Of a stretch of 64,000 nt of DNA, positions 29,096 through 46,002 are shown piece after piece (position 1 is the first letter of the stretch; each line of letters starts with the position of its first letter). The stretch is taken from assembly GCA_000092065.1 (NCBI GenBank), contig CP000594.1; one strand, 5' to 3'. The stretch comes from Ostreococcus lucimarinus (lineage: Eukaryota). Position numbers and translations under genes: made by a program. The notes beneath the pieces are model-generated. The model was given only the letters and a program-made list of their open reading frames with translations, searched no databases and was not told the DNA's origin.

Positions 29096-29210
29096 GTGGG
29101 AAGAAAACTTCTGTGTTGATGTATTTATTGTAATGTAAGAACTCGGTTGCGTTGAAGAATTCATTACGCGGGCTTTTCGGTGCAAAAAAGTACGCTCGCG
29201 CGGGTGCGTT

Positions 29211-30103
29211 TTAAAGCGCCGTCGGGCGCCCACCGTCGACGCCGTCGCTCGACGCCTCGGCGGAGGCGCTCAAAAACCCTTGCGCCCACGCCTCGTCGCG
29301 ACTCCATCCGTCCTTTCCAGATGAAATCGAATTCACCGCCGTGGGCTTGGGTTCAGACGTGTACGACGGTCTAGCGCTCTCGACGCGCGAACCGACGGCG
29401 TCGAGAAGATCGTTCGCCCACGGCGCGCCCGGCATCACTCCCGACAGATTGGGATCGGCGAAGTGGGTCTCATCTTTCGGAGCCACCACGTACTCTCCCA
29501 ATCGACGCTTGATCGCGTTCAGAGCCATCTCCGCTCGAAGCGTGCGCTTTTCAAGTCTTCTGTTCTCCGCGTTCAAGCTGAGCACTTCGCGCTCGAGCGA
29601 AAAGTCGTCCACGAGCATCTTCGCGCGCTCTAAGTGCATTTGCTCCACCTTCGCCCGCAACCGCTTGCGGTCGGCGCGCGCGGGCCAACCGAGAACCAAA
29701 TTCCCAAAAAAAGCGCCGAAAAACCCACCCTTCATCACCCGTCGCGTCTCCGGCTTGAGATTCATCCACTCCTTTCTAATCGGCTCCGTCACCGGCTTCA
29801 ACAAATTATTAATCTGCCTCGCCGTCGGCCCAAAGTGATCGACCGCCACGTTCATCGACGGCTGTATCAACTTCGCCTTCTCATTCATCTCCTTCGTCAC
29901 CACGTTCTGCGTCGACTGCGCCCACGTCGCCGTCGTCGCCGTCGCTCGTCTCGTCAGCTCGCTCGCCTTGTCGAACCACTTCCCCCACCCCCCGCCCTTG
30001 CCGTCGCCACCGCTCGCGCTCGTCGAGGCCCCACCGCTCGCGCTCTGCGCGCCGCTCGCGCCGTTCGGTTCCTTGATCGACCGCACCGCGCGTCCGCGCG
30101 CGC

Positions 30104-30140
<37 letters not shown>

Positions 30141-30317
30141 GCGTCGTCCCGTCCCTCGTCGTCGCGCGCCGTCGTCGCGCGTCGTCGCGCGTCCGCGAAA
30201 CGCGCCGGGTGCGCCGCGATCGAGTCCGCGCGCGCCGAGTCCGCGCGGCGGCGGCAGCATGGCGCCGCCGTCGTCGCGCGTCGGCGTGCGCGGACGCGCG
30301 ACGACGCGTCGCGTCAA
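29211..30317 (-). CDS. Hypothetical coiled-coil protein with poly-Thr (T12) tract
   Basis: 368-aa ORF. The (CGT/ACG)n run at ~30105-30141 encodes the poly-Thr tract. Central region of ordinary composition (NEKAKLIQPSMNVAVDHFGPTARQINNLLKPVTEPIRKEWMNLKPE). Divergent from the VPS13 gene. Confidence 0.35.
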
Positions 30318-30596
30318 CGGCTCGGTCGGACGAGGACCGCTACACAGCGCAATTGGAGGTACTTTATGACCTCAGCGTTCATATTAGGACGGTGCGTGTA
30401 CCTATTTACCGGACGAGGACTGCGTCGTATCGGTAAACAGTGCGAGCGACTGACGCTTCAGTCGCGGTCGCGCGACGGACCCGTCGTCGCGCCGCGGCGC
30501 GCGCGACGGACCGCGAGCGAGGCGTCGTCCGTCGCTCGACGTCCGCGCGGCGTTCGCGCGCGCGATCGAGGCGCGCGCGCGTCGCGACGGACGACG

Positions 30597-33500
30597 ATGG
30601 TGTTCGAGCGGTTGTTGGCGGACCAACTGAACGCGAGGCTCGGGCGCGTGCTCGAGGGCGTCGATCGCGACGACGTGCGCGTGGGCGTGCTGAACGGAGA
30701 CGTGCGGATACGGCGGGTGCGGGTGCGGGCGTCGGCGCTGACGAAGATATTGGACGAGCCGAGCGCGCGGGTGCGGTGCGGATTCGTGGACGAGCTGCGC
30801 GTGCGCGTGCCGTGGAGGAACTTGGGGAAGGAGGCGGTGCGAGTGACGTTTCACGGGGTGTACGTCGTGGGGGAGATCGATGTGAACGGAGACGACGAGG
30901 CGCGGGAGAGCGAGGAGGAGCGGAGGGAGAGACAGCGGGTGAAGGCGTTGAGGACGGCGCGCAGGGCGGCGGACGCGGCGGAGCGGGCGTGGTTGAAGTG
31001 GAATCCGGCGGTGAACGCGGAGGCTTTGGAGGCGGAGGACGGCAGGGAGAGCGCGCAGGATGGGGTGAGGAAGAGGAGCGCGATCGCTGGGCTCATCGAC
31101 GTCGCCCTGGCGAACGTTCTGATTGAAATTTCAAACGTGCACGTCAGAATCGAGGGCGAGTACGGAGCGGGCGTTCCGTGGGGAATGGGACTCGTGCTCG
31201 AACGCGTGTCGCTGACGACCGTTGGAGAAGATTTCGAAAATGACTTCAAAGTCGGCGGTTTCGCCGACAGTTTACGAAAGATGATTGCGTTAGAGCGCGT
31301 CGGCGTGTACGCCGATTTCAATTCGCCGTCAGTCGCGTCAGAGACGCCGGACGGTTGGCGAGGCATCCGCGAAGACCAATTCGTGCGGCAAATGTCCGCG
31401 GTCTTCAATACCGAGGTTGGCGAGCGCATGAAAGAAGGCACCAGCGGCGATGTCGTGATACCGCAATCGTACGTATTCGGACCGTTACGAGGAACGGCGA
31501 CGTACGCGAGAAGAGGTCACGCCGAGGACACCAACACGCCGCTGCATCAATTACGGATGGATATAAATTCTATTCAAATCAGCATCAAGTCAACGCAGCT
31601 TAAGGTGTTTTACAACATGTACTCCAATTTACGCACCAGTCGCGTGCGGTACACGTATGCGCATATACGCCCAAGGGTCGGCGTCAAAGGAAATGCGCGT
31701 TTATGGTGGCGTTTCGCGGGCGCCGGCGTTCAGATGCACGTCGACGAAATACGTAAACGGCGTGGATTGGACTTTAAATCTAGTGTTAGCGCTATGGTGC
31801 GCATAACTGAGGCTCGCCAGCGTTATATTCCTTTATACGTCAAGCATTTGCGCTCTGCACCGCCACCTCCAGAGTGTCTAATCGCCGAACGCGCCGAGCG
31901 ACGCAATAAGCTTTGGCCACCTAAACTGAAGATTGGGATGTCGACAGAAATTGATGAAATCGAAGAAGGTATTCCCCTGCAGAGTATTATTACTTTCCGA
32001 ACGCTGGCGCACGTAGAATACCGGGAGTCTGGCGGGGTGAAAGCGGCGGTAGCGAGAGAACGAGCGGCTCGCTTTGGCAAACGTCGCGTCGTCAGAGCAG
32101 TCGTCGGTCTCGCGGGCGGTGGTGCGAAGAACACGGCAAAGGTATTGAAAGGGCTGTCGGCGCCGATTCGTGGTCTTGCTCGAGCAGTTAACAAACGCGA
32201 CTCGACAGCATTATTAGTCGAGAGGCAAAAGCGTTTGCGAAAGTCGCAACCGGAAGAAGATGATGATTCAAACTGGCGAGAAAGTCTAGAGAATACGGTG
32301 CAATTGAGCCAGCGAATGGTGGCTCTAGAAGAAGAAGCCGTGCACTCTTCGGTTGAGCTATCCGGAGTGGTGAATGTTGAAAAAGTATTAGTTTGCATGG
32401 TTGATGACGAGGTTGACAATCCAATCGGTGAGCAGGAGATTTTTAGAATAGGTGTCCATGAAGTCAGTTTGGGAACGCTGCGAGGTTCTGGACGACGAGA
32501 ACAACGCGTTTCTATCCGCCGATTGGCGATCGTAAGCCCGGAAGGGACACTACTCGATTCCAGTAAGACCACTGATAATGAAGAGAGAGCGACCTCTCTC
32601 GATCGTTCACAAGTTGCGTTATGGGACAAGGCGTCCGAGTGTAACGCGGTGCAATTGCAAATAGTCAAAGGCGATGTCGAGACAGAAGAAGATATCTTCA
32701 TAAAGTTTCAGATGAGGCAGTCGATCGTGCACTTATTGCGAGAGCCTTTAGATAGAGTGGCGCGAGTGGCTGTGCGACACAAAGTGACGACGGCATATCT
32801 CGAATCTTTCATTTACGACGATGAAGCGAAACAGCGCAATCACACACACTCCATCGAAAAGCAGGCAGATGAGTTCAAAATCAGACCAAGAGTGCGATTA
32901 GACGCGCGAGTTCACGGTCCCGTGATTATTTTGGATGGCGACGGCGTAAACTTACGCATAGACCTTGGTACAACGGTAATTGAGTCTATGACGCCAGTTT
33001 CAGCTGGCATCGAGAGCTCACTAGCAAAAGAACACAATGTTTTCTCATTTCAATGCACAGGATTCCAAGTCGGATTTATCGACGATGAATGGGATACGAA
33101 TTCGAACCGACCTGTGGAAGATGAACAGATAATACTTCCGCTGTTGAGTGCACCGTCGTCAAACACCGTCGTGATTCAAAATTTGAATGCCGCATCCGAT
33201 GCGCCGAATCTCAAGGTGCACTCAAAGTTCAGCGCCATTGATATTTCGGTTTCTCCTGTGCGAGTGTTTAAGATCCGTTCTTTGGTCAAGGCATTGAAGC
33301 CAACAACGTCCATAAGTGAGGAACACGTCGCCGCGGTTGTCACCGAAAACGAGGTCCGAGTGCTGCTGCTGCAATTGGATGAAAGCGGCGAAGTGTGTTG
33401 GATACCGGCGACGATATCGTTGCAAAACAATAGTTCTATGGATATTAGAACGATTAATGGGCTCAAAAGTCGAACAATTCACATCAACCTCATGGAAAGC

Positions 33501-36500
33501 AACGGGGCGAGCAAATTGCGAAGTGACATTTGCGCGAAACTCTCCTTGCACAAGGACGTACTCACTATCGGTGAAACTGTGCATTCTTTGGACGAGTTAA
33601 TGATTTCAGCTATGTCGGATGATAGTCTCAGCGTGATGTTTGATATTGACGATGATGATGCGAGATCTCGCGACACGGTCCTGTTCGATGCATGGTACGC
33701 ACGGATTAACGGCGTCGCTCGCGAAAATATCACTAGGCTGACAAATGCTGCAAAGAACGGCAAGCTGTCGAAGACTCAAGTGATTTTAAGTGTCGGCGCC
33801 GAAAAGCTGTCTGTTCATGTTTTTGCACCTCTCAAAGCACATCCATCCGAAGATGATTCCGCTGTGATAAATGACGAATCAGATTCTGAACGAGCGCTCG
33901 CAAGCCTTTGTTTCGACGAGCTCAACTACGACTCGTCGTTGGCTCGTACCGTGAAAGTCCATCATATAAAAGCAAACTCACTCGTTTTGTACGACAGATA
34001 TGCAAGTGAAGGTCTTGGACGCGAGTGCATCGCCGGAATTGGAGGACAGGGCTCCGGTCAACCCCTACTTACAGTCACGGTCGCCGTTCGCCATCAGAGC
34101 GATCCCCAATATTGCGGATTGGACAAGCTGATCGAAGTCGACATTCACAAAGAGTTAGTGATGAATATTCGTCGGCCCACGCTCCTTGCATTGATCTCGT
34201 TGAGATTCAGACTGCGTCCACCCGGTTTCAAGATTATTAAGATCATGCCTGATGTATCGTCGCGCATCATGATTTCTGGCAAGCTCGTAAAACGGATCAA
34301 ACGCGAGATACGCGTGAACGTTGCGGCAGTGACTGCGAATGGCTTTTATGATCACGACAAAGAGATGGATGTTCCTGTGCTAGTGTTGCGTGCCGAAGAT
34401 TCGTATTGGAGCACCATTATCAGTCCTCCAACACGTGAAACAAGCGTAAGCGTTGGCACCATAAAACTTGCGACGGGACAGATGCAAGCTCGGGGCGCTT
34501 GGAATCTACAACCTTCACCCGAGTCGAGCTCAAACATCATACTTTTACGTAATGACGTGTACGACAGAGGAGAAGAATTAGACGGGGCCGATGTGTCGTG
34601 GGAGATCGAGCTCGGAAATTTGGACATAGTTATGACTCCTGAGATGAAGGAAATTGGATCGTGGTTCGCATTCTTTCGTCAAATAAGACCTGATCATATT
34701 GAAAAGTACGTCCACCCATGTGCACGACCTCGAGCTGGATTTCAAGTGCTCAAATCCCGTCTCTTGATCAAGATGGACGATCAAAGGATCACCTTGCCCG
34801 TCGCCCTCAGCGAGGGCGAGTCAAATCACGACGTCGTCATCAACTCAGGATGTGTAGAAATCACCAGATCATTTTCTTCGAAAGCAATCAATGAAGCGCA
34901 TTCAATATTTTGGCAAACAACGGCATTGAGCGTGTCAGAGTTTGAAGTAAGTGTCATCTCATTTGCGGAGAAGCGGAGAGAAAGCGTTTCTAAAATTACG
35001 CAGAAGCCGTTTGGTGTGAAATTGTCTTTGCGGAAGAGAATTGACAGTGGCCCCGCAATCGTGAATGAACTCGATGATAAGAACAAAATCAGAGTGCAGC
35101 CTATTTTCCTCGACTTATCCGGTAGCGAATTTCGATGTATCCACGATTCCATCAAGAACATTCAGTTGAGTAAAGTTCGGCCGAACGTCAAAGTGGAAAA
35201 TCCTATCAGATGGGGTAGCGTCGGACCGCTCCCTGTTTCAGACGTGCTCGCGCCGGCATCGTTGAAGTCGATGGAATTGAGCGTTATTCTGAGCAGCGCA
35301 AAACTCCGCGTCTTCCGGCTACCGATGCAAAGTCGTCCCCTCTCAACGATAAAGGTAGTTGGCGTCGACGTGTTTGTCGTAAAAAACTTGAATCGCAAGT
35401 CTGGAATCAATCTCGACGCTACCGTGGATATGATTGGCGTCGACGATAATTCTCGACAATCCCAGAACCTTAAAGTCAAGCACGTTCTCTATGCGGGTTC
35501 TCCGAAATTACCATTGCTTCATTTGACGCTCGGTGTGAATGATGACAGCACGCGCCTGCGAATTTCGCTACAGCATGTAGAAGTATTGCTGCGTGTGGGA
35601 ATCATTTTGGATACCATACGGACTTTCGCACCTCGAAAATTTGGAGGGGTCTTTTTAGCCAGTACGATTCTTCCTCAAGACATTAAGTGCGTGCACGGCA
35701 GTGACTTCCATCTCGATAAGGATGTCACTCTGACGAAAAGTACGAGACTGCTGGCCGACGATCCCAAAATTGTTGCTGGCAAATATGTGCTGCGCGGAGG
35801 TGGACATACCATAAAATTCGCCGATGGCAAAGGAGCGATCATTCGTCATTATTCCCATGGCTCTCGACGCAAGACGATGCCACGCATTATTATCGGTCAT
35901 GGCGCAACGCTGAAGATTGAAAACGTCACCTTCAATTGTACACGCTCAACATTGTCAAGGTTTATCAAAATGATGCCCGGCGGTAGTTACTCCCTCGGTA
36001 AGAGTGTTTCCTTTGACGAGACCGAAGAAGAGTTGATACCGGTTCACGATGGTCTTGTTGAAAGCACACCAGTTATTGATGCCGCAACAAAGCGTGCAGA
36101 AGAAGGACCAGGGCGAAGAATGAAGGAAATTAAAAAGAAACCGCTGTTGGTCGAGGTGGATGTGTCATGCGTACATATAGTCATCGGTGAAGAATTGAGA
36201 GCTGATCAGATCAACTTGATGTTTGGAGTCGATGTGGCAATAATTCGGGACGAAGAATTGAACACGACGGGAACTTATCAGCTACTTCGTCTTCGTACGA
36301 AGGACACTATGAAACCACCGCTTCTGGAACCAGCAAGCGTGACAATGCACGTTGTATCGCGTGATGGCGGCACCACAACTTGCACGGGGTGTGTGACACC
36401 TATCAAGATGCAGTTGAGTCCCAACAGGATTTGTATCTTGAAGAATTTCACGGAACGTATTGAGCGATCATTTGCAATTGCGCCCATCTTGCAAACCGGC

Positions 36501-39500
36501 GTGTATTCGTGTGTCTGGGCAGGACATGCAACCACTTTAACAAAAAAAGTAACTGAGGCGGGTGTGCTCCGACAAAATCAAGCCGGTAGCAATACTTCCT
36601 ACTCTATCTGGAGACCCGTTGCTCCACCTGGTTACGCCATACTATCTGATGTCGTGAAGTCTGAAGGAGGAGCTCCTGAAACGCAAGTTTTGATCGTTCG
36701 GGATGCGCCCGCTCTGTGCACGTTGCCAGAGAGATTTGAGAAAGTCAAAGGCACCGCAAATCCTTGCCTGTGGCGCCCGATCGCACCGACGGGTTTCGTG
36801 AGCTTAGGCGATATTGCGTCAGTATCGGATGCGGATGAACCGTCGCTGGACGTCGTCCGGTGTATTCGAGAAGAGCTCGTGACGAACATCGGTCAAGCGT
36901 CTACACTCGCAAACTTTCGCTTGTACGGAGATTTCAGTCAATCGAATACAACGTTGTGGCAAATGAATAACAGAGTCCGCGGATTCGTGGTGGTCTCGAA
37001 GTCGAATATTCGGCCTTACGCGTACGACATTCGCTCCCCTCCTGGATTTCAACGCAAAGTTTCGACGGGAACCAAGGAGAAGATAAAGCTGCAGGAAAAG
37101 GAGTGCGAGTGTGCCACCGCGGTGAATTTCAAAAAGATTGGCATGGCACAAAACGCGAAGTCAACTGTTGGGTTTTGGGAAGTCATTCCGCCTACGGGTT
37201 ATGTATCCACCGGACACTGCATGAGTGTGGGCAAACTTCCGCCTTTAAGCAGTAGAGTGTTCGCGGACGATAAACGTACTTTTCGACAACCAGAGTCATA
37301 TGAAAAAGTTGCTTCAGCGCGTACGTACGGCACCACACAGCGTTTGACAATTTGGAAACCAGTGCCATGCGCCGGGTTTGTGAGCGTCGGGTTTGTTGTC
37401 ACCACTGAAGATAACGAGCCTTCTGTGAATGACTCGATCGTCTGCGTCCGAGCAGAATTGGTATCTTACATGCATCAAAGGAACTGGACTACAGACAACT
37501 CTGTTTGGACAGTTGACGAAAATGCTACAGACACCACGCACTTCTGGATCACAAATGATCACACGAAAAATTTCGTTATGAGTGTTTTGACGACTGGCAT
37601 GACGCCCGATTTCGGCTTTGATATCGGCTTCCTAGAAAGCTCTTCGTTAAGGGGGCAAGTACAAATGCCAAATTTCATTATGAAATTCGACGTGCCTCTT
37701 GTGAGCGTCGGACTCTCATTTGAAAGATTGTTTCGCAACCAGATGCTCTTCTTGCTTCGATTGGAAAAAACGAAGTTGAGTTGTACGAAAACGTCGAAAT
37801 TGAATCTGTCGTTAGATTCTTCGCTGTCTCTCCTGCATAGAAATACGCGACTGGGATACAGTCTAGAACCCATTGTGGCGCCGTGGAAGTTTTCGGTTCT
37901 GTTGGATGACTCAAAAAATGATGTTTCGGGCGTGAATCCCGCGGGGTTGGACATGTTCATTGAAAGTAAAAAGAAGATTGAGATAATCGTCAATCAAGCC
38001 TCCATAGTTGACGCAGTGGATGCCGTGATGCAGTTTAAGAAACCACGCGACAAAAACTCAAAAATTGCACATTTGTTGGCTTACGAAGCCGTGCAAAACA
38101 ACGTCATTGTGAATTCCACGGGACGCGACTTATGGGTTCGCGAACTGAATGGCAATATACAAGAAGTACCGCCTGGAAATAGCATTTCGCATTTGGTACA
38201 TGCCGCTGAAACCGAAGCAAATTCTGGATTCGAGAGTGCATCAAATGAGCAGACGATGCGCGGTATGACTGACGTCGTTGATGACATGAATCATCACGGT
38301 GACGAACAGCTCATTATCGCATACCTGATGATGGATATCGTGGCAATTGACTCGTTGGATGACTGGCTTTACCCCCGCATAACTTTCAAGATTTGGGATG
38401 AGGCTTTGCAGGGTCATCGTACCGATCCATTACCCATCGGCGTTACGCGCGGCTCAGCAAAGTTACCGATCCCTCATCCTTTTTTCCATCGCGATAGTGA
38501 TAGCGAGTTCATCAACAATGACGATATCACCATTATCGTCGAAATTTCTCATATTGGGCCAAATGGCGAAACATTGAGCTTCAGTGGTGACTTTGAAGCT
38601 CCAATCGAACAACAACGCGGTGGATGGATTGGCGGTAAAACTGGAAGCTGGATAGACTGTGCTGCAGGCAATGGTGACTCCGTGAGAATTAAGCTGCGCG
38701 CTCGAGTGGTGGAAGGTTTGAATGCGACGCCAGTCACAGAAACGGTAGAGTTGTATCAACTCTTAAAGAGTCCGCAGAAAACGATTATCAAGAGTAAATT
38801 ACAAGTTGAATCACCACCTCTCATCGTGTGTCGTACGAATGACATGGTGAAGCAATGGTGGACAAGAGATCATCAGCAAAGTAAAAGTGCCCTAAGTGCT
38901 TGGAAGCCGCACGTCCCATCGACGTATGAACTCGAGACGAGATATAAGTTTTGTTCGAGTAGAGCTGAAAACGAGTATAAACTCGTACCTTTTGGGACCA
39001 TCCTCTTGCCCGGCCTCATCGCGCCTCGCAGTGCGCTCATGGCAGTTGTCTTAGAACATAATTCAGATCAGCGGGCACCGACTGCTTTTCCCTCGGGGTT
39101 CGAAAATATTTGGACGAGCGATAAAAATGATGTCTCATTTTGGAAGCCCATTGCACCAGACGGTTACGTTGCAGTTGGTAACGTGGTTGCGGCGAGCGCC
39201 GAAATGCCTTCCACCGATTGCGTCGTTTGTGTTCGCGAGGATTTGACAAAACTTGCAGAAGTGCCTCCGGATGTTGCATGGAAATCGAACAGACGATTTC
39301 GCAATAATGATGAAAGAGAATTGGCGCTTATTCAAAACGGCCAACTGAGTACTGGTGGATGGTCGTTCTTGAAGGAGAAAATCAAGCGCACGAGTCCAGG
39401 CGTGATTTCGAACGTCATTCCATCTATGCATAGACTTAATGACAGGATGTGCATTCATTCTTTGGATGACGAAGGTATTCGCGAGTTTTGGATCGATAAC

Positions 39501-42500
39501 CGCACTCATATAGATCATATAAAGCAAGAATTACAAGCTGGAGAGTCAATTCTCGCCATTTCGTTTTCTCCTTCCGGGCCGTTTGAGCAAGTGCGTCTTA
39601 ATCTAGGCGCTTCACACGTTGTTCGTCACAAGACTCACGATTTAGTCTTTGACAGTCAAAAGGGGCATCTTTTGAGCTATGTTTCGTGCGAAAACGAAAC
39701 AGATTCTGATATATTCGTTGATGTTCATCCAGCTATGAAGAGAGAACTCACGACTTCTAATTTGGACATATCTCTGAGTGAGAAGTATGAGTCGCCGAGC
39801 GATGTCGCGGATATAGAAGTATTTGAATCGGAACGATATTACCCGTTGAGAGGATGGCGTGCTCCAAAAGACGCTATCGTAAAAGCTCGTTATAGCAGGC
39901 ATAAAAGTGGACGAGGTTCGCAAAAACGGTTTCCAGACGTCAAAGCTCCAAAAGGTTTCAGATTTGAAGGACCGTGGGAGCTCGACAAACCACCAAATCT
40001 GGTGAATGACGACGGTTGGGCGTACGGTGCTATTTGGCTAAGGAAGTGGCCACCGCCTCGTGGATCAGACAAAAGTAAAGGTCGTGCAACCCGTCGCCGA
40101 CGATGGTTTCGTCGTGTCGTTCGATTGAAATCAGCTGAAGAAATTGAATCGCGCGTTTCCCTTCATAACATGAAGCGAGATTTCATCGAAGATTGGCACG
40201 GCACGTTGGCGGTACACGGACGTCTTACGCTACCTTCTTGTTCACGAACCGAGTCCTACATGTTGGCGTTACGCACGGGGGCTGACGTCGCATCAATTAC
40301 CGCTCCGTCGTTTACCGAGAGAGATGACGCGCTGGATATTCGTGACGTGTTATCAGAGCAAGGCAACTGTGCGCTTGCTTACAACAACCTGCACGATCAC
40401 TTTCTTTTGGTCAAAGAAGAATTGTCGAATGATGTGCAAAGTAGCGCGATAGGTGCTATTCCAGGCGTCAAGATTCGTGTCGTTGCCCCTGTTCACGTTG
40501 TCTCATTGATGGATTGTCCGTCGCAAGTTGTTTTGTACGCCAATGGCGAAGAAAGAATTGCCATGCATCTTGCCGCGAACGAAACGAAACGTATCACGGC
40601 GATCGATGCAAACTGTGATACAATAGAGGTGCTCGTGTCTTTGTTCGAAGATTATCTCAGCCTTAGTAACGACAGGCCGCTGCGTCTAGATGTCACCCCG
40701 GCTGGAAGTCCACCGGCGCCACAGGTAAACTGGTTGAACATCAAAGGCTATCCGTATGTGGTTTCTATGCTGTTGATGGAGACGTGTAGAACTAGAATGG
40801 CGGGTGATAAATTCAACGATGATCCTTCGCAGCATCTCTTGAGTCTGACGTATCGCAATGTGCTGATGGTTACAAATGCATCACCGATCGACATTAAGTG
40901 TTTGGCGTGGGTCGCTGGCACAAGTACGACAAACGCGCACATAGATGCATACGTTGGGGTACCCAAAGGCGAGTCGCAACCTGCCATGTTTCTGAAATCG
41001 AGTGCGAAAACCCTCGCCAAAGTTTCGAGCAAAGAATTTGTGCTCGGTTTTTGTATCGATTCGTCTCCAGTACTAGTGAAAATTTCACCAAGTTCTGAGC
41101 CCGTGATGTTTACGCTTATGACAGCAAGTGGGGACGAACTTGCCTTTCAATGTTCCGTAGTATTATGGGAGGGTCAAAACACCAACGCCGCGACATGGCC
41201 AACGCTTGAAGTTGTTTTACAACCCGTGCTCGTGGCGATCAACTTGACTCGAATTCCTCTCGCGATTCGCTCAAACACTATGGAACACAAGATACTCGAG
41301 CCAGGTTCATATCCCACGCCGTTTTCTTTGGATATTAAGTCTTCGAAAAGCGTAGACGAAGTTGAAGCCGTGCTTAATCAAGCCGCGATTCAAATAGCGG
41401 ATATGTCGTGTCATTCGGAAGGAAAAGATATACTTTGGAGTTCGCCGCTGCAGAATTTGGTGCGCTATTCTGGAGCGATGTGGAGCATCCCACAAGGTGC
41501 CTCCCCCTTGGCGGATGAAATTAATGCATTTAGAAGACTTGGAGGTATCGACGAGTCTGGCGAAAACGTAAATTTCAAGGCACCTATCATCGTTCAGTTT
41601 CTTGTCGAGCGCGGTGAGCACGGTTGCTTCAGGGTCTTTTTTAGGGGGGGCGACGGAGCATCTCTGCAGAAGGCGCCAATCATGATCAAAAACCATTTGC
41701 ACGAACCTTTACTCATTCGACAAGTGAAAGCGAACGACTTTGAGGACGTAGAAAAGAAGTCGGTGCAAAAGTCCACCGTGCGACTACTGCAAGGTATTAA
41801 GAAAGCCTCACACGGCGTAGGACAGTCTTTTGCAATTCGCCCGTTCTCAGCGATATCTTGGGCGTGGAGCGTCCCAGGTATTCCTATGAGATTGGACAAC
41901 TTGAAAAAACAGGAGCTCGAGGCAAACGCCGCGGAGCTCGCATTTCGAAAGCGGAAATTTTTGGAGATATCGAACAATACAGGGGATCACGTCATCATAG
42001 AGATAAACGCGTTCAGCTCGCGATTCAAGGGTTTCATGCACCTCGGCGACATGCAATTTGGAGAACTAGGCAAGCGCACGTTACAGGCAACGATTATTGG
42101 TGAATGGCGTGACGCATCGTTCGTGATCTTCGTGGTTGATAAAACGATAACGTTTGACAACTTTTCTTTCACGACTGAAATGACGAATCAAGCGAAAGCA
42201 TTGACGTTGTACGCGCGGCAGCAAGAAACGCACATCTCTGTCAATTTGGCTGGCTTCTCCGTAACAATCATCGATCGCCTCCGCGACTCATTCGTCGAGT
42301 TATTCCATCTCACGATCGACGACGTGATGATCAGGCACGGAATCAACTTAATCAACAGCAGTTCTGTCTATAGTTATCTCAGAATTGGTGCACTGCAGAT
42401 AGATTTTAGCACGCATGACGCAAGCTATCCAGTCTTCGTTTGGCACGACCCGGCGGACGGGCACTTGCTTGAAGCGTACGCTACTTTGAGTATGAATTCT

Positions 42501-43901
42501 CATATCGGTGGTGACTCGATCGATGTTTATCACGTCCAACTAACGACAACGAAGAAAGGCCTCGTGATTCGCGCCGGTGAAGATCTCGTCTGGACAATCT
42601 TGAACTTTTGCAGACTCCTCCAAACGCAACTTCCACAACGCAACGCTTCAGCAGGTTCCGCCATCGCGCCACGCGAAACGTTTGTTGGAAAGCAAACCTC
42701 ACAAGATAGTTTGCTGAATATCGCCACTTTATACGTGGAACCGACATCTTTTGTTGTCACGTTTGCTCCAAATTCCGATATCCGACCTGCAGACGCCGAC
42801 GCTCGGATGATCGCCGCGTTGACGTTTGCAAGTTTACAGCGCCTGCATTTGGTGCTCAACAAATTTGATAAATTCGATGAGAGCATACTTCGTTCGAATT
42901 TGATTCGCGAATTCCGAAACTATTTCAAGTCACAAATGATAGCGCAAACGCTCAGTGTCATGACATCGATGCACACGCTGACAAACGTTTCCACGGGTCT
43001 AGATGCAGTGAGCAAGGCGGTCGAAACCGGCTTCGGCGTACTCGCGCCTTCTCGTACGGCGCCTTTGGCTCGTTTGCCATCTTCTGTCGTCGGCCGAGGA
43101 AGCAGAAGCGACGGTCAGGGCAACTTTGCGAAAAGTGTATTCGTTGGTCTGAAACGACTGGGGGGTGGTATTTCTAAGGGAATTATCGGCCTTTTCGTCA
43201 GCCCTGTAAAAGGTTGCATGGAAGGCGGCGTCGTGGGCGGGTGTAAAGGATGCGCTCGAGGCGTCGCCGACTTGGTAGCTAAACCGACCGCTGGCGCGTT
43301 AGCTCTCGCCTCAAAGACGGTCGAAGGCGTAGCCAATGCCGCTAAAGGCGTACAGACTGCCGCGTGGGACATCATCACCACGAATAATGTCTCAAAAGCG
43401 TGCATTAAACGCCTCCCCATCGCCGTGCGATCGGATGGCATCATTCGAAGATGGGATGCGCACGACGCGTTGGGTGTTTATTGCATGCGCACATGCGTCG
43501 TGTCCAGTCGAACACTGGGCATTTCTTACTGTCCGGGCGTGAAAGACTCATTCTCCTCGATGCATGACATTTTCGGTGAATATTTGTTGCTTGTCACCGA
43601 CAAGCGCGCGTTGTGCGTTCGGACGCCGGAGATGGACGGGGCCATGCCGGCGCGCGCGCCGACTTGCGCGTGGTACATCTCTTGGAGTGATGTGAGCTCG
43701 ATATGGATCGAAAACTCTGTGATCATAAAGTTGCAGATGAACGTCACGAGTGAGGGCGACACTTCCAACCTGGGTGCGCAGAAGCGTGAAACCGAATCTT
43801 GTTTTTCGATTCGCGCTAGAGCCCAAGACGAGGCGGCGAACATCGAAGCCGCGATGCGTCAAAGCTGGAACGCCTACCTGGATACAACAGAAGAAGAATA
43901 G
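30597..43901 (+). CDS. VPS13: VPS13-family bulk lipid-transfer protein, ~4434 aa, intronless, with an internal series of Vps62/DUF946-like W-x-P-x-x-P-x-G-[YF] repeats
   Basis: N-terminal chorein-N domain MVFERLLADQLNARLGRVLEGVDRDDVRVGVLNGDVRIRRVRV..VRVPWRNLGKEAVRVTFHGVYVV. One continuous 13.3-kb ORF. The track ORF starts at 29634, but the first ATG matching the VPS13 N-terminus is at ~30597. Five repeats (WRPVAPPGYAILSDVV, WRPIAPTGFVSLGDIA, WEVIPPTGYVSTGHCM, WKPVPCAGFVSVGFVV, WKPIAPDGYVAVGNVV) lie at ~36.6-39.2 kb. Confidence 0.9.
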   Translation: MVFERLLADQLNARLGRVLEGVDRDDVRVGVLNGDVRIRRVRVRASALTKILDEPSARVRCGFVDELRVRVPWRNLGKEAVRVTFHGVYVVGEIDVNGDDEARESEEERRERQRVKALRTARRAADAAERAWLKWNPAVNAEALEAEDGRESAQDGVRKRSAIAGLIDVALANVLIEISNVHVRIEGEYGAGVPWGMGLVLERVSLTTVGEDFENDFKVGGFADSLRKMIALERVGVYADFNSPSVASETPDGWRGIREDQFVRQMSAVFNTEVGERMKEGTSGDVVIPQSYVFGPLRGTATYARRGHAEDTNTPLHQLRMDINSIQISIKSTQLKVFYNMYSNLRTSRVRYTYAHIRPRVGVKGNARLWWRFAGAGVQMHVDEIRKRRGLDFKSSVSAMVRITEARQRYIPLYVKHLRSAPPPPECLIAERAERRNKLWPPKLKIGMSTEIDEIEEGIPLQSIITFRTLAHVEYRESGGVKAAVARERAARFGKRRVVRAVVGLAGGGAKNTAKVLKGLSAPIRGLARAVNKRDSTALLVERQKRLRKSQPEEDDDSNWRESLENTVQLSQRMVALEEEAVHSSVELSGVVNVEKVLVCMVDDEVDNPIGEQEIFRIGVHEVSLGTLRGSGRREQRVSIRRLAIVSPEGTLLDSSKTTDNEERATSLDRSQVALWDKASECNAVQLQIVKGDVETEEDIFIKFQMRQSIVHLLREPLDRVARVAVRHKVTTAYLESFIYDDEAKQRNHTHSIEKQADEFKIRPRVRLDARVHGPVIILDGDGVNLRIDLGTTVIESMTPVSAGIESSLAKEHNVFSFQCTGFQVGFIDDEWDTNSNRPVEDEQIILPLLSAPSSNTVVIQNLNAASDAPNLKVHSKFSAIDISVSPVRVFKIRSLVKALKPTTSISEEHVAAVVTENEVRVLLLQLDESGEVCWIPATISLQNNSSMDIRTINGLKSRTIHINLMESNGASKLRSDICAKLSLHKDVLTIGETVHSLDELMISAMSDDSLSVMFDIDDDDARSRDTVLFDAWYARINGVARENITRLTNAAKNGKLSKTQVILSVGAEKLSVHVFAPLKAHPSEDDSAVINDESDSERALASLCFDELNYDSSLARTVKVHHIKANSLVLYDRYASEGLGRECIAGIGGQGSGQPLLTVTVAVRHQSDPQYCGLDKLIEVDIHKELVMNIRRPTLLALISLRFRLRPPGFKIIKIMPDVSSRIMISGKLVKRIKREIRVNVAAVTANGFYDHDKEMDVPVLVLRAEDSYWSTIISPPTRETSVSVGTIKLATGQMQARGAWNLQPSPESSSNIILLRNDVYDRGEELDGADVSWEIELGNLDIVMTPEMKEIGSWFAFFRQIRPDHIEKYVHPCARPRAGFQVLKSRLLIKMDDQRITLPVALSEGESNHDVVINSGCVEITRSFSSKAINEAHSIFWQTTALSVSEFEVSVISFAEKRRESVSKITQKPFGVKLSLRKRIDSGPAIVNELDDKNKIRVQPIFLDLSGSEFRCIHDSIKNIQLSKVRPNVKVENPIRWGSVGPLPVSDVLAPASLKSMELSVILSSAKLRVFRLPMQSRPLSTIKVVGVDVFVVKNLNRKSGINLDATVDMIGVDDNSRQSQNLKVKHVLYAGSPKLPLLHLTLGVNDDSTRLRISLQHVEVLLRVGIILDTIRTFAPRKFGGVFLASTILPQDIKCVHGSDFHLDKDVTLTKSTRLLADDPKIVAGKYVLRGGGHTIKFADGKGAIIRHYSHGSRRKTMPRIIIGHGATLKIENVTFNCTRSTLSRFIKMMPGGSYSLGKSVSFDETEEELIPVHDGLVESTPVIDAATKRAEEGPGRRMKEIKKKPLLVEVDVSCVHIVIGEELRADQINLMFGVDVAIIRDEELNTTGTYQLLRLRTKDTMKPPLLEPASVTMHVVSRDGGTTTCTGCVTPIKMQLSPNRICILKNFTERIERSFAIAPILQTGVYSCVWAGHATTLTKKVTEAGVLRQNQAGSNTSYSIWRPVAPPGYAILSDVVKSEGGAPETQVLIVRDAPALCTLPERFEKVKGTANPCLWRPIAPTGFVSLGDIASVSDADEPSLDVVRCIREELVTNIGQASTLANFRLYGDFSQSNTTLWQMNNRVRGFVVVSKSNIRPYAYDIRSPPGFQRKVSTGTKEKIKLQEKECECATAVNFKKIGMAQNAKSTVGFWEVIPPTGYVSTGHCMSVGKLPPLSSRVFADDKRTFRQPESYEKVASARTYGTTQRLTIWKPVPCAGFVSVGFVVTTEDNEPSVNDSIVCVRAELVSYMHQRNWTTDNSVWTVDENATDTTHFWITNDHTKNFVMSVLTTGMTPDFGFDIGFLESSSLRGQVQMPNFIMKFDVPLVSVGLSFERLFRNQMLFLLRLEKTKLSCTKTSKLNLSLDSSLSLLHRNTRLGYSLEPIVAPWKFSVLLDDSKNDVSGVNPAGLDMFIESKKKIEIIVNQASIVDAVDAVMQFKKPRDKNSKIAHLLAYEAVQNNVIVNSTGRDLWVRELNGNIQEVPPGNSISHLVHAAETEANSGFESASNEQTMRGMTDVVDDMNHHGDEQLIIAYLMMDIVAIDSLDDWLYPRITFKIWDEALQGHRTDPLPIGVTRGSAKLPIPHPFFHRDSDSEFINNDDITIIVEISHIGPNGETLSFSGDFEAPIEQQRGGWIGGKTGSWIDCAAGNGDSVRIKLRARVVEGLNATPVTETVELYQLLKSPQKTIIKSKLQVESPPLIVCRTNDMVKQWWTRDHQQSKSALSAWKPHVPSTYELETRYKFCSSRAENEYKLVPFGTILLPGLIAPRSALMAVVLEHNSDQRAPTAFPSGFENIWTSDKNDVSFWKPIAPDGYVAVGNVVAASAEMPSTDCVVCVREDLTKLAEVPPDVAWKSNRRFRNNDERELALIQNGQLSTGGWSFLKEKIKRTSPGVISNVIPSMHRLNDRMCIHSLDDEGIREFWIDNRTHIDHIKQELQAGESILAISFSPSGPFEQVRLNLGASHVVRHKTHDLVFDSQKGHLLSYVSCENETDSDIFVDVHPAMKRELTTSNLDISLSEKYESPSDVADIEVFESERYYPLRGWRAPKDAIVKARYSRHKSGRGSQKRFPDVKAPKGFRFEGPWELDKPPNLVNDDGWAYGAIWLRKWPPPRGSDKSKGRATRRRRWFRRVVRLKSAEEIESRVSLHNMKRDFIEDWHGTLAVHGRLTLPSCSRTESYMLALRTGADVASITAPSFTERDDALDIRDVLSEQGNCALAYNNLHDHFLLVKEELSNDVQSSAIGAIPGVKIRVVAPVHVVSLMDCPSQVVLYANGEERIAMHLAANETKRITAIDANCDTIEVLVSLFEDYLSLSNDRPLRLDVTPAGSPPAPQVNWLNIKGYPYVVSMLLMETCRTRMAGDKFNDDPSQHLLSLTYRNVLMVTNASPIDIKCLAWVAGTSTTNAHIDAYVGVPKGESQPAMFLKSSAKTLAKVSSKEFVLGFCIDSSPVLVKISPSSEPVMFTLMTASGDELAFQCSVVLWEGQNTNAATWPTLEVVLQPVLVAINLTRIPLAIRSNTMEHKILEPGSYPTPFSLDIKSSKSVDEVEAVLNQAAIQIADMSCHSEGKDILWSSPLQNLVRYSGAMWSIPQGASPLADEINAFRRLGGIDESGENVNFKAPIIVQFLVERGEHGCFRVFFRGGDGASLQKAPIMIKNHLHEPLLIRQVKANDFEDVEKKSVQKSTVRLLQGIKKASHGVGQSFAIRPFSAISWAWSVPGIPMRLDNLKKQELEANAAELAFRKRKFLEISNNTGDHVIIEINAFSSRFKGFMHLGDMQFGELGKRTLQATIIGEWRDASFVIFVVDKTITFDNFSFTTEMTNQAKALTLYARQQETHISVNLAGFSVTIIDRLRDSFVELFHLTIDDVMIRHGINLINSSSVYSYLRIGALQIDFSTHDASYPVFVWHDPADGHLLEAYATLSMNSHIGGDSIDVYHVQLTTTKKGLVIRAGEDLVWTILNFCRLLQTQLPQRNASAGSAIAPRETFVGKQTSQDSLLNIATLYVEPTSFVVTFAPNSDIRPADADARMIAALTFASLQRLHLVLNKFDKFDESILRSNLIREFRNYFKSQMIAQTLSVMTSMHTLTNVSTGLDAVSKAVETGFGVLAPSRTAPLARLPSSVVGRGSRSDGQGNFAKSVFVGLKRLGGGISKGIIGLFVSPVKGCMEGGVVGGCKGCARGVADLVAKPTAGALALASKTVEGVANAAKGVQTAAWDIITTNNVSKACIKRLPIAVRSDGIIRRWDAHDALGVYCMRTCVVSSRTLGISYCPGVKDSFSSMHDIFGEYLLLVTDKRALCVRTPEMDGAMPARAPTCAWYISWSDVSSIWIENSVIIKLQMNVTSEGDTSNLGAQKRETESCFSIRARAQDEAANIEAAMRQSWNAYLDTTEEE

Positions 43902-43951: not shown

Positions 43952-44653
43952 TCAACGCCCTAACCCAATCTTTTTCAACAGCGATTTTGATTCGCTCGCG
44001 AGCGCCAACCTCTCCGTGAGCTCGTCAATCTCCTCCTCCGTGAGCTCCGTCTTCACCTGATCGCCGTCCGGCGATTTCCCTTGTATCTTACGCACGAGAT
44101 AAATGATGGAATCCCGCTCGTCGTTCGCCTTACGCAGTCGCTCTTGAAGACTTTCCAACAGTTGCGTCTCCCGTTCGTCCGTCGGCGCTCGCGCCTCCCT
44201 CGACCCATCTCCCCGCTCATCCCGCGCCTTCGTCTCGCGCGTCGCCACCATCTCCATCGCATCGTTCGCGCCTCCGCGCCTCGCGCTCCCTCCGTCGTCC
44301 GCGCGCGCCGCCGCGCCTCGCGCGCCGCCGAACCATCCGAATCCGCGTCTCCCCCTCGCCTCCATCGCCGCCGCCCGCGCCGCCTCCCGCGCCGCCTCCC
44401 GCGCCCGTATCCTCGCCTCGATCCGATCCCCGATCGACTGCCCCCCCCGCTCGCCGAACACGTCGATGTACGACGCGTACCACGCCCGCGGCGCCGCGCA
44501 CAGCGTCATCAACCCGAGCGTCATCCACGCGATGCACGCCCTCGCCCGTCGCGTCCCGCGCTCGTGCGTCGCCCGCGCGTGTTGCGGCGTCACCTGCGCG
44601 TGTCTCGTCGGCGCCCGCGCGTCGCGCTCGCGTCGCTCGACGCGCGCGCGCAT
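43952..44653 (-). CDS. Hypothetical protein (N-terminal hydrophobic segment, charged coiled-coil C-terminus)
   Basis: ORF with the less biased C-terminal segment DERDSIIYLVRKIQGKSPDGDQVKTELTEEEIDELTERL. No family recognised. Confidence 0.3.
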   Translation of the reverse strand: MRARVERRERDARAPTRHAQVTPQHARATHERGTRRARACIAWMTLGLMTLCAAPRAWYASYIDVFGERGGQSIGDRIEARIRAREAAREAARAAAMEARGRRGFGWFGGARGAAARADDGGSARRGGANDAMEMVATRETKARDERGDGSREARAPTDERETQLLESLQERLRKANDERDSIIYLVRKIQGKSPDGDQVKTELTEEEIDELTERLALASESKSLLKKIGLGR

Positions 44654-45060
44654 GTTTTCTTCGATTCGGCGCGACGTCGAGTGGCGCGCGTCGCGTCACT
44701 TCGCGCCATGTCGCTTCGACTCCGCTTCGCCGGCCGCGGCGTCGGCGGCGCGGACGACGCGCGCGAGCGCGCGAGCGACGATCGCGTCTCCTTCGGCGTT
44801 TTGCGGCTGTGCGTCGGTCGAGGGACGTTCGCGCGGTGGAAGAGCGTGCTCTTGCACTTTAATCCGGAATCCGCGAGCGTCGTCGCGCGCGGACGCGCGA
44901 ACGCGCAGAAGCGCGCGGTCGAGGTGCGACGAGCGAGCGCGCGACGCGCGACGAACGAACGCGCGACGCGACGAGCGAACGCGCGACGGCGCGCTGACGA
45001 TGCGGGCGAAAACTTTAAATCGATGCACTTCATTCGCAGGAACGGTTATCGCCGTTTTCG

Positions 45061-45915: not shown

Positions 45916-46002
45916 AGCCGGCGTTCTCTCCATAGCGACGCAAGGTACCGTAGTTTGTAAAACAATTGAATAAAAGTTAAAGTTAAAGTTGTTGTCACAT
46001 TT

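What the first reader, a model, noticed from the sequence alone, without database searches (positions are those of the whole stretch)
30597..43901. Intronless 13.3-kb VPS13-family gene with an embedded Vps62-like repeat series and a sharp compositional shift
The gene is a single ORF of ~4434 codons with a clear chorein-N start. Its GC content is ~50% against >65% in the flanks. Between ~36.6 and 39.2 kb it carries at least five spaced W-[RK]-P-[IV]-x-P-x-G-[YF]-V-S-x-G-D motifs, which are characteristic of Vps62/DUF946-type proteins and are not part of the canonical VPS13 domain set. The atypical base composition and codon usage of such a long gene is unexplained. It could reflect expression-linked codon bias, a different replication or recombination environment, or a foreign origin.
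Basis: partly seen in the sequence, partly recalled or inferred. Interest (0 to 1): 0.55.

Follow-up and report, generated by a model that had tools for sequence, protein, structure and literature searches.

The report
Green-algal VPS13M gene, ordinary composition gradient
This is the already annotated VPS13M lipid-transfer gene of the marine picoalga Ostreococcus lucimarinus; its 'Vps62' repeats are the beta-tripod domains typical of green-plant VPS13M, and its low GC content is what a very long gene looks like in a genome where only gene starts are GC-rich.

Summary
A single 4434-codon ORF at 30597-43901 is identical to O. lucimarinus XP_001421248.1. It has a chorein N-terminus, three independent PF06101 (Vps62) hits and about 50% GC.

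The repeats are already described. They are the beta-tripod domains that define Viridiplantae VPS13M (Levine 2022; Leterme 2023). An AlphaFold model of the third copy matches the beta-tripod of GNIP1Aa (6FBM). C2 and DysF domains are present as well.

One small difference is the position of the third tripod. It sits between C2 and DysF, not at the C-terminus. Four other picoalgal proteins share this order.

The compositional shift is not sharp and does not follow the gene's boundaries. GC decays over 1-1.5 kb inside the ORF.

- Every long gene in the window shows the same 5'-to-3' fall in GC3 (rho = -0.63, 110 bins).
- After fitting that gradient, VPS13M sits 1.4 SD below its neighbours, and three other genes sit lower.
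- Syntenic orthologues from three other species (40-51% identity) have the same profile.
- 4-fold sites in the gene body are near-uniform, so there is no codon bias there.

Foreign origin is not supported. The finding is ordinary and largely known.

The parts
30597..43901 (+). Intronless CDS of the VPS13M orthologue (4434 aa plus stop), identical to XP_001421248.1
30600..32033 (+). Chorein / VPS13_N region (aa 2-479)
   Evidence: PF12624, E = 1.5e-38, 132.8 bits against a cut-off of 80.
36588..37163 (+). Beta-tripod 1 (aa 1998-2189); motifs at aa 2005 and 2059, with a degenerate third strand at about aa 2121
   Evidence: PF06101, 36.3 bits; motif scan; local tripod HMM.
37155..37796 (+). Beta-tripod 2 (aa 2187-2400); motifs at aa 2194 and 2253, with a third strand at about aa 2317
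   Evidence: PF06101, 42.2 bits.
38289..38732 (+). C2-like beta-sandwich (aa about 2565-2712)
   Evidence: No Pfam or PDB sequence hit. AlphaFold model has pLDDT 81 and pTM 0.75. Its top Foldseek PDB matches are almost all C2 domains, with probability 1.00 and TM 0.45-0.52.
38880..39494 (+). Beta-tripod 3 (aa 2762-2966), internal. Its first hairpin carries a 19-aa insertion. Motifs at aa 2769 (degenerate) and 2849.
   Evidence: PF06101, 46.4 bits. AlphaFold model has pLDDT 77.5. The only significant PDB fold match is 6FBM GNIP1Aa, E = 7.8e-6, probability 1.0. 6FBM is also the best sequence hit.
39804..40130 (+). DysF (dysferlin/Pex24-type) domain (aa 3070-3178)
   Evidence: PF06398, E = 2.2e-5, 24.1 bits, below the 26.8 cut-off. 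A profile of five orthologues hits the dysferlin inner DysF 4CAH at E = 6.7e-6 and myoferlin 2K2O at 5.7e-5.
41463..43355 (+). Distal VAB / last RBG / ATG2_C-type region (aa 3623-4253), colinear with canonical VPS13M
   Evidence: A local HMM built from the DysF-to-PH interval of seven canonical VPS13M proteins matches at E = 1e-33, HMM positions 449-1015. There is no Pfam VAB hit.
43398..43898 (+). C-terminal PH-like domain (VPS13_C). The protein ends here, with no C-terminal tripod.
   Evidence: PF25037, E = 3.8e-8, 33.7 bits against a cut-off of 21; domain map.
30318..31500 (+). GC-rich (0.59-0.72), G-skewed (+0.3 to +0.45) zone covering the divergent promoter and the 5' end of the CDS
   Evidence: The same zone is seen at 22 of 23 genes in the window.
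32100..43000 (+). Low-GC plateau of the gene body (GC 0.46-0.50, GC3 about 0.50, 4-fold sites near-uniform)

Best explanation
The gene is the single VPS13M orthologue of Ostreococcus lucimarinus. VPS13M is a bridge-like lipid-transfer protein.

By analogy with characterised VPS13 proteins (inference from the family, not tested here), the chorein N-terminus docks at a donor membrane. Lipids then slide along the hydrophobic groove formed by the repeating beta-groove body. The accessory domains act as targeting and adaptor modules that decide which membranes are bridged. These domains are two tandem beta-tripods, a C2, a third beta-tripod, DysF, VAB and a C-terminal PH. The 'Vps62-like repeats' are the strands of three beta-tripod domains, with two canonical W-x-P-x-x-P-x-G-Y hairpins and one degenerate hairpin in each.

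The low GC content is not a property of this gene's origin. In this genome, GC and coding-strand G excess are concentrated in a zone of about 0.7 kb decay length around each gene start. Beyond that zone, genes relax towards lower GC3. This gene is 13.3 kb long, so about 90% of it lies outside that zone. Its body also shows no codon preference, as expected for a long and probably weakly expressed gene. It therefore sits at GC3 of about 0.50.

The process that enriches GC at gene starts is inferred, not shown. Candidates are biased gene conversion at promoters and a transcription-coupled process.
For: Identity:
- The protein is an exact match to XP_001421248.1.
- Pfam finds VPS13_N, three PF06101 hits and VPS13_C.
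- DysF is supported by a profile hit to dysferlin, C2 by fold and the tripod by fold to 6FBM.
- The published VPS13M ancestor architecture is Chorein-PH-beta-helix-tripod-tripod-C2-DysF-VAB-ATG2_C-PH-tripod, is Viridiplantae-specific, and O. tauri falls in the VPS13M clade (PMC10683392; PMC7613979).
- The distal region is colinear with canonical VPS13M.

Composition:
- In the other 22 genes, GC3 falls with distance from the start codon (rho = -0.63, p = 2e-13, 110 bins). The fit gives a plateau of 0.61, an amplitude of 0.26 and a decay length of about 670 nt.
- The first 200 codons of VPS13M are as GC3-rich as those of any neighbour (0.85-0.90).
- Its mean residual after the fit is -0.10, or z = -1.4, and 3 of 22 genes are lower.
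- Non-coding DNA has the same polarity. Spacers next to a gene start (5'-side, divergent or tandem) are 0.62-0.74 GC in 10 of 12 cases; two long tandem or divergent spacers are 0.55 and 0.59. Convergent 3' spacers are 0.38-0.56 (six of seven 0.38-0.49).
- GC1, GC2 and the share of G/A/R/P residues are also raised at 5' ends.
- Syntenic orthologues with 40-51% amino-acid identity have VPS13M GC3 of 0.49-0.53 against neighbours at 0.63-0.81, with the same profile. A 66%-GC relative shows a milder U-shaped dip.
- 4-fold sites in the body are A .22-.26, C .24, G .28, T .22-.25. Distal parts of other genes are A .14, C .34, G .31, T .21.
- Polymorphisms polarised by an outgroup give 43 GC-to-AT changes against 18 AT-to-GC. 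This implies an equilibrium GC3 of about 0.36 for the body. That is close to the mutational equilibrium of 36.8% measured in O. tauri (PMC5455958).
- Codon bias rises with expression in O. tauri, and the codon usage of its genes is GC-rich (PMC3673656).
Against: - At equal distance from the start (1.2-3.6 kb), VPS13M GC3 is 0.48-0.53 against 0.61-0.66 in other genes. The gradient alone therefore leaves about 0.10 unexplained. I attribute this to weak codon bias, but I have no expression data.
- The comparison rests on 23 genes in one window and four related loci, not on the genome-wide distribution.
- The 5' zone is strand-asymmetric: coding-strand GC skew is +0.22 in the first 450 nt against +0.08 later. 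Strand-symmetric biased gene conversion cannot produce that by itself.
- Pfam does not detect the VAB repeats, the N-terminal PH or the beta-helix expected of VPS13M.
- The third tripod is not where the published scheme puts it.
Confidence: 0.8

Rival explanations
1. Foreign origin. The gene, or its low-GC body, was acquired horizontally and keeps the donor's composition.
For: The raw contrast of about 0.48 GC against 0.71 in the adjacent 1-kb bins. 4-fold codon usage in the body is unlike that of the neighbours.
Against: - The transition lies inside the ORF and is gradual.
- The 5' end has typical host composition.
- The gene is a colinear member of a Viridiplantae-wide family.
- It sits in conserved synteny (KAS, P-type ATPase, VPS13M, cofilin, RRP12) in three other species, which show the same GC profile although they share only 40-51% amino-acid identity.
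Confidence: 0.02
2. Expression-linked codon bias alone. The gene is weakly expressed, so translational selection for GC-ending codons is relaxed along the whole gene.
For: Near-uniform 4-fold usage in the body, with loss of the C3 preference seen in the distal parts of other genes. Codon bias correlates with expression in O. tauri (rho = -0.22; PMC3673656).
Against: - The first 600 nt of the same gene have GC3 of 0.88, as high as any neighbour.
- Intergenic DNA and codon positions 1 and 2 follow the same polarity.
- The published expression effect is weak compared with the positional effect found here (rho = -0.63 to -0.79).
Confidence: 0.12
3. Local recombination-poor or outlier-chromosome-type domain. 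The gene lies in a low-GC, low-recombination block like the big outlier chromosome of Mamiellales.
For: In Ostreococcus, low GC marks the non-recombining part of chromosome 2 and the small outlier chromosome (PMC5498103).
Against: - The low-GC block is confined to one ORF.
- Flanking genes have normal GC3 of 0.69-0.83.
- The window mean of 0.58 is close to the 59% genome GC reported for O. tauri (PMC5455958); I did not retrieve a genome figure for O. lucimarinus.
- There are no introns or repeats in the block.
- The pattern recurs at the orthologous gene in other species.
Confidence: 0.03
4. Methylation-driven decay. Gene-body CG methylation, absent near starts, drives C-to-T loss far from promoters.
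For: CpG observed/expected is lower in the body (1.37) than elsewhere (1.61). TpG/CpA is higher (1.10 against 0.85). Dense linker CG methylation in O. lucimarinus gene bodies is something I recall from Huff and Zilberman 2014; I did not retrieve that paper here.
Against: CpG is still over-represented (above 1.2) throughout the body. The fall affects G3 and C3 at all 4-fold sites, not only CpG contexts.
Confidence: 0.1

Closest known systems
Viridiplantae VPS13M (Arabidopsis AtVPS13M1/M2; Levine 2022, PMC7613979; Leterme et al. 2023, PMC10683392)
   Same: Shared features are the chorein N-terminus, a tandem pair of beta-tripod ('Vps62') domains in the middle, a C2 upstream of the VAB, DysF, a colinear distal region and a C-terminal PH. 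Length is about 4100-5400 aa.
   Different: The third beta-tripod lies between C2 and DysF, not after or inside the C-terminal PH, and the protein ends with the PH. This order is shared by P0077-P0080. The N-terminal PH, the beta-helix and the first VAB modules were not detectable with Pfam or HMMER here.
Beta-tripod domain of GNIP1Aa (PDB 6FBM; Zaitseva et al. 2019, as cited in PMC7613979)
   Same: It is the best and only significant fold match for the modelled third repeat unit (E = 7.8e-6). It shares the W-[RK]-x-I-x-P-x-G-Y-x-x-L-G-D hairpin motif.
   Different: GNIP1Aa is a bacterial pore-forming toxin in which the tripod binds a cell-surface receptor. Here the fold is an accessory module of a cytosolic lipid-transfer protein. 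TM-score is only 0.37 and sequence identity 18%.
5'-to-3' GC3 gradients in plant genes (grasses and other angiosperms), usually attributed to recombination and biased gene conversion near gene starts
   Same: GC3 is highest at the start codon and declines over about 1 kb, so long genes have lower mean GC3. That this is well described for angiosperms is from my own knowledge.
   Different: I found no description of this pattern for Ostreococcus in the searchable library. Here the gradient comes with a strong coding-strand G excess and CpG over-representation.
Yeast Vps13 / human VPS13A-D
   Same: Chorein N-terminus, bridge-like architecture and a C-terminal PH-like domain.
   Different: According to PMC10683392, beta-tripod-bearing VPS13 proteins are so far known only in Viridiplantae.

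Membership tests
VPS13 (bridge-like lipid-transfer protein) | N-terminal chorein / VPS13_N region | tested here: met
   PF12624, E = 1.5e-38, residues 2-479.
VPS13 (bridge-like lipid-transfer protein) | C-terminal PH-like domain (VPS13_C) | tested here: met
   PF25037, 33.7 bits against a cut-off of 21, aa 4272-4382.
VPS13 (bridge-like lipid-transfer protein) | VAB (adaptor-binding) repeats, which distinguish VPS13 from ATG2 | tested here: inconclusive
   No Pfam VAB hit in this protein or in four orthologues at E <= 1. The interval aa 3623-4253 is colinear with the DysF-to-PH interval of canonical VPS13M (E = 1e-33). The first half of that interval is not detected.
VPS13 (bridge-like lipid-transfer protein) | Continuous repeating-beta-groove body forming a hydrophobic channel | not tested
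   The full-length structure was not modelled because of the 1200-aa limit. This feature is inferred from family membership.
VPS13M (Viridiplantae paralogue) | Tandem pair of beta-tripod ('Vps62', PF06101) domains in the middle of the protein | tested here: met
   PF06101 at aa 2051-2130 and 2225-2301. The local HMM places them at aa 1998-2189 and 2187-2400.
VPS13M (Viridiplantae paralogue) | [quoted passage not shown] | tested here: met
   AlphaFold model of aa 2560-2720 has pLDDT 81. Its top PDB fold matches are C2 domains with probability 1.00. There is no sequence-level hit.
VPS13M (Viridiplantae paralogue) | DysF domain within the VAB region | tested here: met
   PF06398, E = 2.2e-5, below the gathering score. 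An orthologue profile hits dysferlin and myoferlin DysF structures at E = 6.7e-6 and 5.7e-5.
VPS13M (Viridiplantae paralogue) | Third beta-tripod at the C-terminal end, after or inside the PH | tested here: not met
   The protein ends with the PH at aa 4434. The third tripod is at aa 2762-2966, between C2 and DysF. Loss of the C-terminal tripod is already accepted within the family, for example in angiosperm VPS13M2. This is therefore a variant, not an exclusion.
VPS13M (Viridiplantae paralogue) | Additional N-terminal PH domain and a beta-helix | tested here: inconclusive
   No Pfam hit in aa 480-1999 at E <= 0.1. The literature found these domains only with HHpred, which I could not run against Pfam or PDB profiles.
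Beta-tripod fold | Three-fold pseudo-symmetric beta structure matching GNIP1Aa | tested here: met
   Foldseek top hit 6FBM, E = 7.8e-6, probability 1.0, with pleurotolysin B next. Model pLDDT is 77.5. TM-score is modest at 0.37.
Horizontally acquired / compositionally foreign gene | Composition break at the gene borders, no vertical orthologues, no conserved synteny | tested here: not met
   The break lies inside the ORF. Orthologues are present in synteny in other species.

The most novel reading that the evidence does not exclude
Two modest readings remain open.

(a) Every gene start here carries a GC-rich, G-skewed, CpG-rich zone of about 0.7 kb, which fades to an unbiased baseline. This may be a genome-wide feature of Mamiellales that has not been described. 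It could be anchored on promoters and coupled to transcription or recombination. The 13-kb VPS13M gene would then be the longest natural ruler for measuring the process and the neutral baseline (GC3 about 0.5, against a mutational equilibrium of about 0.36).

(b) Mamiellales-type picoalgae carry a rearranged VPS13M in which the third beta-tripod sits next to the C2/DysF/VAB adaptor cluster and not at the C-terminus.
Probability: 0.3. Interest if true: 0.4.

Novelty: already known. Interest (0 to 1): 0.18.

Why it matters
It matters little as a discovery. The gene is annotated, its family and its 'Vps62' (beta-tripod) domains are published, and the composition follows a local rule shared with the neighbouring genes.

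It is useful in two practical ways:
- It shows that in Ostreococcus-type genomes a long low-GC block inside one ORF should not be read as foreign DNA.
- It offers a clean example for measuring the promoter-proximal GC and G-skew gradient and the unbiased baseline of these compact genomes.

The shifted third beta-tripod is a small addition to the catalogue of VPS13M architectures.

Tried and rejected
- A homology search with the full 4434-aa protein timed out. With aa 1901-3200 it gave one distant hit. With tripod 3 alone it gave none. The word-indexed search was not informative for this family.
- The exact-sequence contig look-up of the window's VPS13M found nothing.
- The metagenome locus scan returned only relatives with 93% or more identity. 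These were useful for polymorphism but not for cross-species comparison. Cross-species loci came instead from the representatives search plus contig look-ups.
- Pfam did not detect the VAB, the N-terminal PH, the beta-helix or the C2.
- hhalign of the VAB-region alignment against the full-length Closterium protein gave no usable match.
- I tested whether the internal tripod derives from the canonical C-terminal tripod. It scores best against the C-terminal tripod HMM in all five proteins, but by small margins (window: 62.8 against 62.4 and 45.0). The result is inconclusive.
- I considered CpG depletion as the cause of the low GC. CpG remains over-represented in the body, so this is at most a contributor.
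- Beyond 1.5 kb from any gene start, GC3 within VPS13M shows no further trend (rho = -0.13, p = 0.43). It is a plateau, not a continuing decline.
- Literature searches for an Ostreococcus GC3 gradient or GC skew at gene starts found nothing relevant.
Full report
**Source and observation**

The window comes from Ostreococcus lucimarinus CCE9901. The translation of 30597-43898 is identical to XP_001421248.1 / ABO99541.1 / UniProt A4S7C3 ('Vacuolar protein sorting-associated protein'), which lies on a 708,927-bp chromosome record. Two other window proteins (the ULK4-like kinase and poly(A) polymerase) also carry O. lucimarinus accessions; the KAS protein is recorded under NCBI but without an accession or organism name, and the Tudor-SN sequence only in Logan assemblies. 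The same proteins are abundant in marine metagenome assemblies, including Tara Oceans.

The ORF is real. It has 4434 codons with no interruption. The published gene model has no intron, because the uninterrupted translation equals the model.

The frame stays open upstream to 29634. Metagenome gene callers use an ATG 76 codons upstream (P0018). The VPS13_N profile begins at residue 2 of the 30597 model, so 30597 is the true start.

**What the protein is**

Pfam on the whole protein gives four relevant hits:

| Family | E-value | Residues |
|---|---|---|
| VPS13_N | 1.5e-38 | 2-479 |
| Vps62 (PF06101) | 4.9e-31 | three stretches |
| VPS13_C | 3.9e-7 | C-terminus |
| Pex24p | weak | 3053-3172 |

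Scanned in pieces, the three PF06101 stretches each pass the gathering score independently. They lie at aa 2051-2130, 2225-2301 and 2825-2900.

The six copies form three pairs, at aa 2005/2059, 2194/2253 and 2769/2849. About 0.005 matches are expected by chance. A third, degenerate W-containing strand follows the first two pairs; for the third pair I only read a comparable strand ('EFWIDN', about aa 2965) by eye in the translation.

This is the anatomy of a beta-tripod. An AlphaFold model of aa 2755-2970, built on a 23-sequence alignment, reached pLDDT 77.5 and pTM 0.75. Its only significant PDB match is the beta-tripod protein GNIP1Aa (6FBM, E = 7.8e-6, probability 1.0). Pleurotolysin B comes next. 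6FBM is also the best sequence hit for tripods 1/2 and for tripod 3.

Other domains:
- DysF. A five-orthologue profile of aa 3045-3185 hits the DysF domains of dysferlin (4CAH, E = 6.7e-6) and myoferlin (2K2O, 5.7e-5).
- C2. The region aa 2560-2720 has no sequence-level hit. It models with pLDDT 81 as a beta-sandwich whose best PDB matches are almost all C2 domains.
- Distal region. Residues 3623-4253 are colinear with the DysF-to-PH interval of canonical VPS13M proteins (E = 1e-33).
- VAB. Pfam's VAB model does not fire.

**Comparison with what is known**

Levine (2022, PMC7613979) reported that Pfam's 'Vps62 domains' in Arabidopsis VPS13M1/M2 are beta-tripods, and that the Vps62 name stems from a spurious alignment.

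Leterme et al. (2023, PMC10683392) made three relevant points:
- The ancestral VPS13M architecture is Chorein-PH-beta-helix-tripod-tripod-C2-DysF-VAB-ATG2_C-PH-tripod.
- The association of tripods with VPS13 is specific to Viridiplantae.
- O. tauri sequences fall in the VPS13M clade.

**A small architectural variant**

An exhaustive HMMER search with aa 2431-3260 found 471 relatives. The three best are 4396-4429 aa long, share 40-51% identity with the window protein over its full length, and are colinear with it.

I mapped domains with local HMMs. Two arrangements appear:

| Group | Members | Domain order |
|---|---|---|
| Picoalgal | window protein, P0077-P0079, P0080 (5103 aa, GC-rich) | tripod-tripod-C2-tripod-DysF-...-PH(end) (C2 detected in the window protein and P0077-P0079, not in P0080) |
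| Canonical | Closterium P0102, Coffea P0167 and several others | tripod-tripod-DysF-...-PH-tripod |

P0102 and P0167 were identified.

The internal tripod carries a conserved 19-aa insertion in its first hairpin. It scores marginally better against the canonical C-terminal tripod profile than against the T1 or T2 profiles. The margin is too small to decide between relocation and duplication plus loss. The text of PMC10683392 does not mention this arrangement. Its Figure 3 may show it, but I could not see that figure.

**Composition**

The raw contrast is real. The gene is 0.50 GC with GC3 0.53, and the adjacent 1-kb bins are 0.71-0.72.

The change is neither sharp nor at the gene borders. GC declines from 0.71 at the ATG to about 0.5 over 1-1.5 kb inside the ORF. 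It recovers slightly in the last 600-900 nt.

The same polarity is seen in the neighbouring genes.
- The first 600 nt have GC3 of 0.88-0.90 in the three genes above 1000 aa whose GC3 clearly declines (VPS13M, the P-type ATPase and RRP12) and 0.66-0.89 in the other genes; by 3-4 kb the ATPase and RRP12 reach 0.56-0.62.
- Across 110 bins of 100 codons from 22 other genes, GC3 falls with distance from the start (rho = -0.63, p = 2e-13). An exponential fit gives a plateau of 0.61 and a decay length of about 670 nt.
- Non-coding DNA follows the same rule. Spacers next to a gene start (5'-side, divergent or tandem) are mostly 0.62-0.74 GC (10 of 12; two are 0.55 and 0.59). Convergent 3' spacers are 0.38-0.56, with six of seven at 0.38-0.49.
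- Codon positions 1 and 2 follow it too.

Relative to that fit, VPS13M averages -0.10. This is 1.4 SD below the other genes, and three of the 22 are lower still. It is at the low end but not an outlier. Beyond 1.5 kb from any start its GC3 is flat.

The residual has a recognisable signature. In the VPS13M body the four bases are used almost equally at 4-fold sites. The distal parts of other genes keep a C3 preference and avoid A. That is what absence of translational selection looks like. It fits the expression-dependent codon bias, in genes whose codon usage is GC-rich, reported for O. tauri (PMC3673656).

**Cross-species test**

I fetched the loci that encode the three closest orthologues. 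They are syntenic: KAS, P-type ATPase, VPS13M, cofilin and RRP12.

| Locus set | VPS13M first 600 nt GC3 | VPS13M plateau / overall GC3 | Neighbours GC3 |
|---|---|---|---|
| Three syntenic orthologues | 0.65-0.72 | plateau about 0.5; overall 0.49-0.53 | 0.63-0.81, with their own 5'-to-3' declines |
| 66%-GC relative (P0080 locus) | 0.84 | dips to 0.63-0.69, recovers to 0.82 | 0.83-0.87 (one overlapping short ORF call at 0.57 set aside) |

These proteins share only 40-51% amino-acid identity with the window protein, so I infer that their synonymous sites are saturated. A shared profile therefore reflects a process acting continuously in each lineage, not inheritance of foreign composition.

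**Direction of change**

Eight near-identical haplotypes were polarised by a 94%-identical relative. They show 43 GC-to-AT against 18 AT-to-GC polymorphisms. Third positions in the body imply an equilibrium GC3 of about 0.36, but this rests on only 16 against 9 events.

That value matches the mutational equilibrium of 36.8% measured in O. tauri mutation-accumulation lines, against an observed genome GC of 59% (PMC5455958). Population data for O. tauri are compatible with GC-biased gene conversion (PMC5498103).

The gene body is thus the part of the locus closest to the mutational baseline, though it is still above it.

**Mechanism: shown and inferred**

Shown here:
- The positional gradient.
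- Its presence in non-coding DNA.
- Its conservation across species.
- The lack of codon bias in the gene body.
- The AT-biased polymorphism spectrum.

Inferred: the force that raises GC near gene starts. Biased gene conversion at promoter-associated recombination sites is the conventional candidate. However, the 5' zone is also strand-asymmetric:
- Coding-strand GC skew is +0.22 in the first 450 nt against +0.08 later.
- The skew is positive in 22 of 23 genes (p = 0.002).
- 4-fold sites there are 60-70% G.

A transcription-linked or selective component must therefore contribute as well. Methylation-driven CpG decay is at most a minor contributor, because CpG stays over-represented throughout.

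**Verdict**

The finding is a correct description of an annotated, vertically inherited VPS13M gene. Its 'Vps62' repeats are known beta-tripod domains. Its low GC content follows from its length in a genome with promoter-proximal GC enrichment, plus weak codon bias. Foreign origin is rejected.

What is possibly new is minor: the internal position of the third tripod in Mamiellales-type algae, and the apparently undocumented 5' GC and G-skew gradient of these genomes.

Noticed in passing
window, all genes (for example 30597-31050, 29870-30317 minus strand, 44200-44653 minus strand): Gene 5' ends carry a strand-asymmetric signature. Coding-strand GC skew averages +0.22 in the first 450 nt against +0.08 later and is positive in 22 of 23 genes. 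4-fold sites there are 60-70% G. Pure biased gene conversion would not produce this skew.
   Followed up: partly
window, whole: CpG is over-represented everywhere (observed/expected 1.0-2.0). It is highest in the GC-rich 5' zones and correlates with GC (rho = 0.77).
   Followed up: no
window intergenic spacers, for example 22566-22662, 29096-29210, 45916-46002 against 26056-26477, 50440-50805: Short convergent 3' spacers are AT-rich (GC 0.38-0.44). Spacers next to a gene start (5'-side) are mostly GC-rich (0.62-0.74).
   Followed up: partly
window 58000-64000: There is a second GC-poor stretch (0.46-0.58). It holds two ORFs without Pfam hits (58890-60959 plus strand, 62997-63980 minus strand) with GC3 of 0.54 and 0.59 and the lowest CpG observed/expected in the window. 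Their residuals are more negative than that of VPS13M.
   Followed up: no
window 43952-44653 (minus strand): A small convergent gene of 233 aa (GC3 0.82) starts only 50 bp after the VPS13M stop. It is conserved in the syntenic loci. The overlapping plus-strand ORF 44081-45070 is probably not a gene.
   Followed up: partly
window 38901-39030 (aa 2769-2810): The first hairpin of the third beta-tripod carries a 19-residue insertion (ELETRYKFCSSRAENEYKL). It is conserved in the three closest orthologues and absent from all other tripods in the alignment.
   Followed up: no
L018:760-16071: A 5103-aa VPS13M relative from a 66%-GC picoalga, possibly Micromonas-like (not identified), has the same internal third tripod. 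Its GC3 profile is U-shaped (0.84, down to 0.63, back to 0.85).
   Followed up: partly
window 30369-30596: The reading frame is open upstream of the true start. Prokaryote-style gene callers in metagenomes therefore extend the protein by 76 Arg/Ala-rich residues, giving 4510-aa versions such as P0018.
   Followed up: yes
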